Virus record (IMG/VR): IMGVR_UViG_3300045125_000127
From: a virus
DNA length: 64,000 bases
Direction: 5' to 3' (one strand)
How positions within the stretch are numbered: position 1 is the first letter of the stretch; each line of letters starts with the position of its first letter. Positions 6,574-6,681 of this stretch are shown one piece after another. The notes beneath the pieces were generated by a model, which was not told the DNA's origin, ran no database searches, and saw only the letters and a list, made by a program, of their open reading frames with translations. A program made the translations under genes and the position numbers.

Positions 6574-6681
6574 GGGCGGGTAGCTCAATGGTAGAGCAGC
6601 AGCGACTCCGGGCGGTCCGACAGTAACCGGGGATTGCGGATAGCTAAGTTAGTAAGTTGGTTCGATTCCAGACCTCGCCCA
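6574..6681 (+). ncRNA. tRNA-like RNA with anticodon arm replaced by a ~50-nt stem-loop
   Basis: Acceptor GGGCGGG/CTCGCCC+A, canonical D-arm GCTC-AATGGTA-GAGC, T-loop TTCGATT; extended arm CTCCGG/CCGGGG with loop GCGGTCCGACAGTAA; no 7-nt anticodon loop. Confidence 0.75.

What the first reader, a model, noticed from the sequence alone, without database searches (positions are those of the whole stretch)
6574..6681. tRNA mimic with the anticodon arm replaced by a long stem: candidate Y-RNA-like partner for phage Ro60
Seen: intact acceptor stem, textbook D-arm and TTCGATT T-loop, but a ~50-nt extended arm whose loop contains GGTCCGA, and no anticodon loop. Established: bacterial YrlA Y RNAs mimic tRNA D/T/acceptor arms with a long stem in place of the anticodon arm; GGUCCGA is the 5' Ro60-binding heptamer of vertebrate Y RNAs, whose partner is UUGAC (a TTGAC lies at 6702-6706). 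Here the order is tRNA-like rather than permuted as in YrlA. Ro60 is encoded 3.1 kb downstream. The heptamer could be chance. Alternatives: decoy for anticodon nucleases or an uncharged-tRNA-sensor mimic.
Basis: partly seen in the sequence, partly recalled or inferred. Interest (0 to 1): 0.72.

Follow-up and report, generated by a model that had tools for sequence, protein, structure and literature searches.

The report
Long-armed tRNA look-alike of huge phages
The stretch is a real, conserved tRNA-shaped RNA gene of uncultured huge phages whose anticodon arm is lengthened by two extra helices, but the "Ro60-binding" heptamer that made it look like a Y RNA exists only in this error-ridden copy and is not a feature of the family.

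Summary
Window 6574-6681 (+) holds a genuine tRNA-like gene. The window is a noisy assembly: against clean Illumina contigs of close relatives the element carries 7 extra bases and 4 substitutions. The clean form (L023:2821-2921, 101 nt) scores 51.5 bits on the Rfam tRNA model. It has acceptor, D and T arms and an intact anticodon stem, followed by two further helices and a 9-nt terminal loop.

I found 12 lineages of this RNA ("A") in huge-phage contigs. The long arm is backed by strong covariation: 96.5% of cells paired and 18 of 29 pairs with compensatory changes. The terminal loop N-UUAUAGU-N is invariant in all clean copies. Only the window reads CGACAGU, and that is what creates GGTCCGA. 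The heptamer is therefore not conserved, and TTGAC lies in a neighbouring gene.

Relatives carry a different tRNA-ordered YrlA-like RNA ("C") 42-68 nt after the Ro60 stop codon in three lineages. The scan has already described C on other DNA. C is the better Ro60 partner, and the window has none.

A always sits just upstream (8 nt to 1.5 kb) of a phage tRNA-Ile(UAU) whose anticodon loop it copies, in an island that also encodes IleRS. Best reading: a non-decoding tRNA mimic tied to the phage's AUA/Ile module. Ro60 binding stays possible but unsupported.

The parts
6574..6681 (+). Element A: long-armed tRNA-like RNA gene. The window copy is 108 nt and the clean relatives are 99-104 nt.
   Evidence: Rfam tRNA gives 22 bits here and 51.5 bits for clean L023:2821-2921. 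My covariance model R1 gives 75 bits here and 85-119 bits in relatives.
6574..6580 (+). Acceptor stem, 5' strand. It pairs with 6674-6680. The discriminator is A6681 and no CCA is encoded.
   Evidence: 7 of 7 pairs hold in all 8 A1 sequences, 4 of them with compensatory changes.
6583..6597 (+). D arm: GCTC, AATGGTA, GAGC.
   Evidence: 100% of cells paired. The columns matching tRNA U8, A14, G18, G19 and A21 are invariant.
6599..6603 (+). Stem I, equivalent to tRNA anticodon stem 27-31, 5' strand. It pairs with 6643-6649, which holds two spurious A (6646-6647).
   Evidence: 5 of 5 pairs show compensatory changes. 45 of 50 cells are paired over 10 lineages. The AA is absent from all four runs.
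6607..6610 (+). Helix II, 5' strand (TCCG). It pairs with 6637-6640 (CGGA). It is flanked by internal loop 1 (6604-6606 GAC with 6641-6642 TA) and internal loop 2 (6611-6612 GG with 6633-6636 ATTG).
   Evidence: 4 of 4 pairs show compensatory changes, and 40 of 40 cells are paired over 10 lineages. The UG of loop 2 is invariant.
6613..6629 (+). Helix III (CGGT with ACCG) plus the 9-nt terminal loop 6617-6625.
   Evidence: CGG/CCG and UUAUAGU are invariant in 12 lineages. C6618T, G6619T and C6621T appear in all four runs. The difference is one of 30 clusters of three or more mismatches within 5 nt against L023.
6630..6632 (+). GGG that is absent from every relative. It is most likely an insertion error of the assembly.
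6656..6673 (+). T arm: GTTGG, TTCGATT, CCA(G)AC. G6671 is absent from the relatives, where the stem is a perfect GTTGG/CCAAC.
7023..7127 (+). Element B: tRNA-Ile(UAU)-like gene with anticodon loop CTTATAA and a two-hairpin variable arm of about 28 nt. It is the constant downstream neighbour of A.
   Evidence: Rfam tRNA gives 28.2 bits here and 59.1 bits for clean L023:3255-3353. Homologues lie after A in L027, L028, L029, L032, L187 and L189.
9786..11567 (+). Ro60/TROVE gene. It is frameshifted in the window and is an intact 581 aa in L023.
   Evidence: Pfam vWA_Ro60 at 4.9e-10. tblastn against relatives. Intact ORF in L023.

Best explanation
Element A is a conserved, non-decoding, tRNA-derived RNA of a clade of uncultured huge phages.

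Shown here:
- It keeps a complete tRNA body: acceptor stem, D arm, T arm, and the nucleotides that build the tRNA elbow.
- Its anticodon stem runs on through two further helices, making an arm of about 13 bp with two internal loops.
- The arm ends in an invariant loop N-UUAUAGU-N on an invariant CGG/CCG helix.
- The gene lies in the phage tRNA island, always just upstream of the phage's unusual tRNA-Ile(UAU), whose anticodon loop is YUUAUAA. The same island encodes the phage's own IleRS and Ro60.

Inferred:
- The RNA is cut out by RNase P and RNase Z and receives CCA like its tRNA neighbours.
- The lengthened arm keeps its loop from reaching the ribosomal decoding site.
- The tip of the arm shows a copy of the tRNA-Ile(UAU) anticodon loop. 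The same letters are also complementary to that loop over 6 bp, counting one G-U pair.
- It therefore most likely works inside the phage's AUA/isoleucine module. Either it is a look-alike (decoy or regulator) for a factor that reads that anticodon arm (IleRS, an enzyme that modifies position 34 or 37, or a host anticodon nuclease), or it is a loop-loop pairing partner of the tRNA itself.

It is not a Y RNA defined by a GGUCCGA heptamer.
For: Clean sequence and tRNA score.

Family of 12 lineages: L023, L183, L028, L029 (same as L046), L032, L187, L189, L126, L035, L107, L110 and L163.

Covariation: 96.5% of cells paired, 18 of 29 pairs with changes on both sides, 0 of 500 shuffles as high, and 27-47% paired when the partners are slid. 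In the 10-lineage parse stem I is paired in 45 of 50 cells, helix II in 40 of 40 and helix III in 37 of 40. Independent minimum-energy folds give the same arm.

Invariant parts: the loop UUAUAGU, CGG/CCG, the UG of loop 2 and the tRNA elbow nucleotides.

Copy number: one copy in the complete 532-kb genome G002.

Link to B: A precedes B in all 8 lineages where the flank can be seen, with gaps from 8 nt to 1.5 kb. B's anticodon loop is CUUAUAA or UUUAUAA.

IleRS: TIGR00392 at 805 bits in the same island.

Paralogue: L163:383-480 has the same architecture with another anticodon-like loop, UUCAUGG.
Against: No experiment and no RNA data exist for this element.

Because UUAUAG is nearly palindromic, sequence alone cannot tell 'copy of the anticodon loop' from 'complement of the anticodon loop'.

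Both loops are invariant, so there is no covariation between A and B to test pairing.

The tRNA body of A cannot be assigned to the Ile isotype.

For the A2 subfamily a tRNA-Ile(UAU) is seen near A only in L107.

A also co-occurs with Ro60 in 7 of the 8 Ro60 lineages examined. Its CCG-RNUG stretch faintly resembles the YrlA motif GNCGAAN0-1G. Three lineages with A and Ro60 show no C-type RNA in the DNA held.
Confidence: 0.42

Rival explanations
1. A is an unpermuted, hairpin-closed Y-like RNA. The phage Ro60 docks on the long arm, for example on the conserved internal loop CCG-RNUG, and the tRNA body recruits an effector, as in YrlA.
For: A lies 2.3-10.1 kb upstream of Ro60 in 7 of the 8 Ro60 lineages with 57-68% Ro60 identity that I examined.

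The window, L023, L183/L027 and L189 show no C-type or canonical YrlA RNA in the DNA held.

The 3' strand of the arm, RCCG-RNUG-Y, sits where the YrlA 5' motif would sit and resembles GNCGAAN0-1G, which is defined in PMC4201824. A 'UA' lies before the anticodon-stem strand, as in the YrlA kink described in bioRxiv 10.1101/312249.
Against: GGUCCGA is private to the window.

The motif match is loose, with 1-2 mismatches in 8 positions, in a window where the loose motif occurs about 190 times.

There is no Rfam YrlA hit at E up to 5.

A coexists with C, which carries the YrlA signature AUGC..GGGAUUACAU and sits 42-68 nt after the Ro60 stop codon in L032, L187 and L188.

L188 has Ro60 and C but no A within 10 kb.

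The A2 copies sit in tRNA arrays with no Ro60 in view, and the 254-kb record G001 has none.

The most conserved part of A is the terminal loop, which has no counterpart in Y RNAs.
Confidence: 0.2
2. A is an intron-containing tRNA gene. A segment of about 29 nt is spliced out to give a decoding tRNA.
For: At lowered thresholds ARAGORN proposes tRNA-Arg(GCG) with a 31-nt intron. Another gene of the related genome G002 (13184-13277) looks like tRNA-Lys(CUU) with a 21-nt hairpin in the anticodon loop, and removing it would restore CUCUUAA.
Against: With the covariation-supported stem I as the anticodon stem, the loop flanks are 5' GAY and 3' UA. No excision gives a 7-nt loop with U33.

ARAGORN's stem has an A-A mismatch, omits position 26 and conflicts with the covarying pairs.

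There is no group I core in about 30 nt, and no bulge-helix-bulge geometry (the loops are 3x2 and 2x4 nt).

The 'intron' is the most conserved part of the RNA.
Confidence: 0.04
3. A is a decaying tRNA pseudogene or an assembly artefact with no function.
For: The window copy is damaged: 7 extra bases, a bulged T stem and a broken stem I. The assembly is noisy.
Against: Clean copies exist in independent Illumina assemblies from several habitats. Twelve lineages keep the structure through compensatory changes and keep a 7-nt loop invariant, while Ro60 has diverged to 57% identity.
Confidence: 0.02

Closest known systems
YrlA (Y RNA-like A, Rfam RF02553; Chen et al. 2014, PMC4201824; structure in bioRxiv 10.1101/312249)
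   Same: Both are tRNA-derived and non-decoding. Both keep the D and T arms and the elbow nucleotides. Both have a long stem where the anticodon arm would be. Both are encoded among tRNAs in phages that carry Ro60.
   Different: YrlA is circularly permuted: the T arm comes before the D arm, the acceptor stem is capped by a loop, and the ends lie in the Ro60-binding stem. A has tRNA order, with free acceptor ends and a capped arm. A lacks GNCGAAN0-1G and the AUGC..GGGANUACAU module, gives no RF02553 hit, is not adjacent to Ro60, and has an invariant anticodon-like loop that YrlA lacks.
tRNA-ordered YrlA-like RNA
   Same: Both have tRNA order, true acceptor ends and a long capped arm in place of the anticodon loop. 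Both occur in the same phages.
   Different: C carries the YrlA signature (AUUUGUCC-UUCG-GGAAUGC, then a UGGGAUUACAU variable-arm hairpin). It matches canonical YrlAs with my HMM at 12-26 bits and sits directly after the Ro60 stop codon. A has none of these blocks, and the C HMM aligns only the tRNA parts of the clean copy of A.
Canonical tRNA, in particular the phage tRNA-Ile(UAU) next door (element B)
   Same: Acceptor, D, anticodon-stem, variable-loop and T regions are present, and the clean copy passes the Rfam tRNA threshold. The terminal loop of A, UUAUAG, nearly equals the UUAUAA of B's anticodon loop.
   Different: The loop sits two helices further out, after 8 more base pairs and two internal loops. 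It has 9 nt, not 7. The body cannot be assigned to an isotype. Decoding on the ribosome is sterically implausible, which is an inference.
T-box Stem I / specifier loop
   Same: Both are structured RNA arms that display a triplet able to pair with a tRNA anticodon, followed by a purine. In A the triplet is AUA followed by G.
   Different: There is no K-turn, no distal double T-loop platform, no antiterminator and no cis-regulated gene. A is itself tRNA-shaped. This is a resemblance only and was not tested.

Membership tests
YrlA (RF02553) | Match to the Rfam covariance model | tested here: not met
   No YrlA hit in the window at E up to 5, nor in L023 1-8200, nor in L028, L029, L031 and L032 at E up to 1. 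Positive controls L002, L004 and L001 score 32-57 bits.
YrlA (RF02553) | Permuted order: T arm 5' of D arm, acceptor stem capped, 5' and 3' ends forming the Ro60-binding stem | tested here: not met
   A has D before T, and its ends lie in the acceptor stem.
YrlA (RF02553) | Conserved GNCGAAN0-1G near the Ro60-binding stem (PMC4201824) | tested here: not met
   The best counterpart is RCCG-RNUG, with 1-2 mismatches and variable letters. The vertebrate-type GGUCCGA occurs only in the window copy.
YrlA (RF02553) | Conserved tRNA elbow (D- and T-loop tertiary nucleotides) | tested here: met
   The columns for U8, A14, G18, G19, A21, G53, U54, C56, A58 and C61 are invariant in the 8 A1 sequences.
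YrlA (RF02553) | Encoded next to Ro60/rsr | tested here: inconclusive
   A is in the same island but 2.3-10.1 kb away, with genes and tRNAs between them. It is absent near Ro60 in L188, and the A2 copies have no Ro60 in view.
YrlA (RF02553) | Binds Ro60 | not testable with these tools
   This needs a gel-shift assay or an RNA immunoprecipitation.
Canonical decoding tRNA (RF00005) | Cloverleaf with a 5-bp anticodon stem closed by a 7-nt loop with U33 and purine 37 | tested here: not met
   The stem is present, but 36 nt (two helices and a 9-nt loop) lie where 7 should be. Default ARAGORN rejects it in the window and in L023.
Canonical decoding tRNA (RF00005) | Rfam gathering score (29 bits) | tested here: met
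   The clean copies score 51.5, 50.4 and 45.4 bits. The window copy scores only 22 bits, because of its extra bases.
Intron-containing tRNA (group I or bulge-helix-bulge) | Excision restores a canonical 7-nt anticodon loop; intron core or BHB motif present | tested here: not met
   No excision gives U33 with the covarying stem I. The internal loops are 3x2 and 2x4 nt. The insert is too short for a group I intron.
tRNA-ordered YrlA-like RNA ('C') | Conserved blocks AUUUGUCC-UUCG-GGAAUGC and UGGGAUUACAU | tested here: not met
   nhmmer with the C profile gives 60-96 bits for C members. The clean copy of A aligns only in its tRNA parts (about 9-11 bits), and the window copy scores 15.6 bits. A regular-expression search for the signature finds none in the window.

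The most novel reading that the evidence does not exclude
A is a trans-acting 'anticodon reader or shield' for the phage's own tRNA-Ile(UAU). Its invariant loop UUAUAG would pair with the anticodon loop UUAUAA of the neighbouring tRNA (a tRNA-shaped analogue of a T-box specifier), or would stand in for it. Either way this would control or protect AUA decoding against host anticodon nucleases or modification enzymes. Alternatively, A is a second, unpermuted class of Ro60-docking RNA whose docking site is the CCG-RNUG loop. Either would be a new way for a virus to use a tRNA-shaped RNA.
Probability: 0.2. Interest if true: 0.78.

Novelty: new variant of a known kind. Interest (0 to 1): 0.5.

Why it matters
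Huge phages carry large translation islands with tRNAs, aminoacyl-tRNA synthetases, L7/L12 copies and Ro60. What the non-canonical RNAs in these islands do is mostly unknown.

This work removes a false lead: a Ro60 heptamer created by assembly noise or a private mutation.

It replaces that lead with a well-defined RNA family that, as far as Rfam 15 and the searched papers show, has not been described. The family has a full tRNA body with a covariation-proven, lengthened anticodon arm, tipped by an invariant copy of the UAU anticodon loop. It is always paired with an unusual phage tRNA-Ile(UAU).

This gives a concrete, testable object for asking how phages control or protect decoding of the rare AUA codon. 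It also sharpens the question of which RNAs serve phage Ro60: the tRNA-ordered YrlA-like RNA sitting right after the Ro60 stop codon is the stronger candidate.

Tried and rejected
- **RNA evidence:** no RNA holder was listed for the stretch. The one run labelled RNA-Seq is probably DNA and is held only as contigs, so nothing can be said about expression or RNA ends.
- **Exact and degenerate pattern scans built on the window's letters** found nothing. The 30-mer that includes C6603 gave 0 hits in viral contigs. The D arm + GGTCCGA + T loop pattern gave 0 hits in viral contigs. The D arm + GCAG + T loop pattern gave 0 hits in metagenome contigs. In hindsight these failed because they required letters that are private to the window or to close kin.
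- **megablast and blastn of the region and of Ro60 against deposited phage genomes:** no match.
- **No whole genome** is held for the window.
- **ARAGORN intron model tRNA-Arg(GCG):** rejected, because it conflicts with the covarying stem.
- **Alternative small hairpin GACU/GGUC(C)G that would mimic the Y-RNA bulged helix:** it is present in the window and in L023 but is not kept in the other lineages, where helices II and III covary instead.
- **GCCGAAAG in element B as a Ro60 motif:** rejected. It is a 3-bp hairpin with a tetraloop, and its letters change to GCCUAAU and GCCAAAC in relatives.
- **Isotype assignment of A's body against 212 phage tRNAs:** no clear winner among Ala, Val, Asn, Ile and Lys.
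- **Conserved protein neighbour of A:** none. The upstream ORFs are unrelated, and a small zinc-ribbon-like ORF follows A in only two lineages.
- **Ro60 near other long-insert tRNA-like genes of unrelated phages (L011-L022):** none in the DNA held.
- **Simple duplex energies for loop-loop pairing** are weak and uninformative.
- **Alternative genetic code as the cause of the broken frames:** rejected in favour of small insertions and deletions.

Full report
**1. What is in the window**

Positions 6574-6681 (+) read as a tRNA with too much sequence in the middle. The parts are:
- a 7-bp acceptor stem;
- U8 and A9;
- a D arm GCUC/AAUGGUA/GAGC;
- a T loop UUCGAUU;
- discriminator A, with no encoded CCA.

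Default ARAGORN finds only three ordinary tRNAs in the window, at 97, 3251 and 4097, and not this element. The Rfam tRNA model gives 22 bits, below the gathering score of 29, with 52 nt where 17 belong and a bulged T stem. GGTCCGA is at 6614-6620 and TTGAC at 6702-6706. GGTCCGA occurs 9 times in the window on both strands, which is about what chance gives.

**2. The window is a noisy copy**

Reading frames all over the window are broken. The Ro60 gene (9786-11567) changes frame at least five times, while its relatives are intact. Another genetic code does not explain this.

I laid public contigs on 6000-7400. Four runs from biofilter, lake-water and wastewater samples hold relatives that are 90-99% identical. 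Within the element:
- all four runs lack GGG near 6630, AA at 6646-6647, A at 6654 and G at 6671;
- all four runs carry C6618T, G6619T and C6621T;
- three of the four runs carry C6603T.

I fetched two such contigs through the neighbouring L12-like protein. L023 and L024 confirm the clean 101-nt sequence at L023:2821-2921.

Over 15.1 kb the window differs from L023 by 246 window-only letters, 114 L023-only letters and 375 mismatches. L023 has intact genes, so the errors sit in the window. The three loop substitutions form one of 30 clusters of three or more mismatches within 5 nt between the two sequences. I cannot tell whether they are errors or a private mutation.

**3. The clean element**

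L023:2821-2921 scores 51.5 bits on the Rfam tRNA model, with a perfect T stem and an intact anticodon stem. Its minimum-energy fold is a cloverleaf whose anticodon arm carries on beyond the normal stem (z = -2.5). From the tRNA core outward the arm is:
- stem I, 5 bp, equivalent to tRNA positions 27-31 paired with 39-43;
- internal loop 1: GAC on the 5' side, UA on the 3' side;
- helix II, 4 bp;
- internal loop 2: GG on the 5' side, AUUG on the 3' side;
- helix III: CGGU paired with ACCG;
- a 9-nt terminal loop, C-UUAUAGU-A.

The anticodon arm is therefore lengthened, not replaced, and the excess is about 29 nt.

**4. A conserved family**

I scanned Ro60-bearing relatives fetched through Ro60 homologues. 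I also scanned public collections with patterns taken from the distal hairpin. Together these gave 12 lineages.
- Subfamily A1, with a canonical D arm: L023, L183, L028, L029 (the same as L046, in the complete 532-kb record G002), L032, L187, L189 and L126.
- Subfamily A2, with a degenerate D arm and a longer loop 1: L035, L107, L110 and L163.

On the MAFFT alignment of the eight A1 sequences, my structure has 96.5% of cells paired. 18 of 29 pairs change on both sides: 5 of 5 in stem I, 4 of 4 in helix II, 4 of 7 in the acceptor stem and 3 of 5 in the T stem. No shuffle out of 500 reaches these values, and sliding the partners drops pairing to 27-47%. A five-sequence version gave the same picture.

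A position-anchored parse of ten lineages, A2 included, gives stem I paired in 45 of 50 cells, helix II in 40 of 40 and helix III in 37 of 40. L187 even replaces the first C-G pair of helix III with U-A.

The following are invariant: the seven loop letters UUAUAGU, the CGG/CCG of helix III, the UG of loop 2, and the elbow nucleotides of tRNA.

My covariance model R1 scores clean members at 85-119 bits (A1) and 49-54 bits (A2), and the window copy at 75 bits. The complete genome G002 has exactly one copy.

The family is real and under selection. The pseudogene and artefact readings fail for the family as a whole.

**5. The Ro60 / Y-RNA reading**

The heptamer GGUCCGA is produced by the window's private letters. 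Every clean copy reads GGUCUUAU, GGUGUUAU, GGUUUUAU and the like. TTGAC lies after the 3' end of the RNA, inside the convergent gene (L023:2923-3213).

The Rfam YrlA model finds nothing in the window at E up to 5 or in L023. The same model finds canonical, permuted YrlAs beside Ro60 in more distant phages: L002 at 57 and 38 bits, L004 at 50 bits and L001 at 32 bits.

In the clade that carries A, canonical YrlA is absent. There is, however, a third RNA, which I call C. It is a 123-130-nt molecule in tRNA order, with ends in the acceptor stem. Its arm holds AUUUGUCC-UUCG-GGAAUGC and its variable-arm hairpin holds UGGGAUUACAU. These are the blocks of YrlA, joined by a tetraloop. A profile built from C hits canonical YrlAs at 12-26 bits.

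C lies 42-68 nt after the Ro60 stop codon in L032, L187 and L188, and 0.8-1.6 kb after it in L029 and L031. G002 has three copies.

C is therefore the natural Ro60 partner, and it coexists with A in L029, L032, L187 and L035.

No C is found in the window, L023 to L028, L183 or L189. In G002, though, C copies lie up to 26 kb from Ro60, and the window reaches only 9.8 kb upstream of Ro60. A copy outside the window is therefore not excluded.

A itself lies 2.3-10.1 kb upstream of Ro60 in seven of eight lineages. L188 has Ro60 and C but no A within 10 kb. The A2 copies sit in plain tRNA arrays with no Ro60 in view, and the 254-kb record G001, which is 51% complete, has none.

Some points still favour Ro60:
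- the shared island;
- the lineages with no visible C;
- a loose likeness of RCCG-RNUG to GNCGAAN0-1G (motif from PMC4201824);
- a UA before the anticodon-stem strand, as in the YrlA kink (bioRxiv 10.1101/312249).

I put this reading at about 0.2.

**6. What A goes with**

In all eight lineages where the flank is visible, A is followed by the same odd tRNA, element B. The gap ranges from 8 nt (L189) to 1.5 kb (L028, L029). B has the anticodon arm NNNNN-YUUAUAA-NNNNN (anticodon UAU, isoleucine codon AUA) and a covarying two-hairpin variable arm of about 28 nt. It lies at window 7023-7127, and the clean copy L023:3255-3353 scores 59 bits as tRNA.

The island also encodes an IleRS (TIGR00392 at 805 and 761 bits, above the cut-off of 621) a few kb past Ro60.

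The invariant loop of A, UUAUAG, equals B's U33-UAU-A37-A38 except for the last letter. Because the word is nearly palindromic, it is also complementary to B's loop over 6 bp, counting one G-U pair.

A paralogue next to the A2 copy in L163 keeps the same architecture with the loop UUCAUGG, which is CAU-like. This fits the idea that these long arms display anticodon-type loops.

This is why I place A in the phage's AUA/isoleucine module, as a non-decoding look-alike of the tRNA-Ile(UAU) anticodon arm or as a pairing partner of it.
- Shown: the structure, its conservation, the synteny with B and the loop identity.
- Inferred: tRNA-type processing, inability to decode, and the identity of the partner.

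The body of A could not be assigned to an isotype, and no protein gene is a constant neighbour.

**7. Intron reading**

At lowered thresholds ARAGORN calls tRNA-Arg(GCG) with a 31-nt intron. Its stem contradicts the covarying pairs. No excision leaves a 7-nt loop with U33. The insert is too short for a group I intron and lacks bulge-helix-bulge geometry. It is also the best-conserved part of the RNA.

**8. Comparison and novelty**

A works like a tRNA mimic of the YrlA kind in general design: a tRNA body plus a long arm. It fails the defining tests for YrlA membership on order, motif, model match and adjacency to Ro60.

Neither Rfam 15 nor the papers I searched describe a tRNA-ordered RNA with this arm and loop. 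I class it as a new variant of a known kind, namely phage tRNA mimics.

**9. Verdict**

- Observation: partly confirmed.
- Ro60-heptamer interpretation: not supported. The tRNA-mimic part of the reading is supported.
- Interest: moderate (0.5). This is a clean new RNA family with a testable link to AUA decoding, but its function is unproven.

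Noticed in passing
L029:12683-12811, L031:3922-4045, L032:11808-11930, L187:11757-11879, L188:11764-11886, L035:4430-4553; also G002:6212-6336 and 14780-14904: These are tRNA-ordered YrlA-like RNAs ('C'). Each has true acceptor ends and an arm AUUUGUCC-UUCG-GGAAUGC capped by a tetraloop, plus a UGGGAUUACAU hairpin in the variable-arm position. They lie 42-68 nt after the Ro60 stop codon in three lineages. 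None is seen in the window. The same kind of RNA was noted earlier in this scan (e1-5486589).
   Followed up: partly
window 7023-7127 (clean copy L023:3255-3353): This is a tRNA-Ile(UAU)-like gene with a variable arm of about 28 nt made of two small hairpins. The second hairpin covaries and has the loop CUGAUUA or CAGAUGA. The gene is conserved in at least 7 lineages and always lies downstream of element A. The window copy is damaged by extra bases (28 bits against 59 bits).
   Followed up: partly
whole window, e.g. 9786-11567: The window is an error-rich assembly. Compared with Illumina contigs of near-identical phages it shows about 1.6% extra letters, 0.75% missing letters and 2.5% mismatches. 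Broken ORFs in this window should not be read as pseudogenes or recoding.
   Followed up: yes
window 11607-15859: About 4.25 kb directly after the Ro60 terminator has no counterpart in the otherwise collinear relative L023 (L023:7633 joins to window 15860). I did not examine its content.
   Followed up: no
G002:13184-13277 (locus L186): This is a tRNA-Lys(CUU)-like gene with a 21-nt hairpin-bearing insert in the anticodon loop. Removing the insert would restore the loop CUCUUAA. It may be a short tRNA intron in a huge phage.
   Followed up: no
L025:5620-5660, L027:11712-11752, L028:11790-11830, L029:11872-11912: The hairpin right after the Ro60 stop codon is conserved as a covarying stem of about 15 bp with an invariant loop UGWUAGCAA. 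L023 and the window have a plain terminator there instead.
   Followed up: no
L011, L012/L018, L013/L015/L019/L020, L014, L021, L022 (viral contigs): Many unrelated phages carry tRNA-ordered genes with 20-60-nt inserts between the D and T arms, each with a different insert. No Ro60 lies in the few kb held around them.
   Followed up: partly
L163:383-480 (-): This is a paralogue of the A2 subfamily, 230 nt from the A copy. It has the same arm (GGCGGC...GCCGAUUGCGG) but the terminal loop UUUUCAUGGUU, which contains CAU and AUG.
   Followed up: no
G002:121415-121540 (locus L174): ARAGORN calls a tRNA with anticodon CUA (an amber-suppressor type) in the complete 532-kb relative. This hints at TAG reassignment or suppression in that phage.
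   Followed up: no
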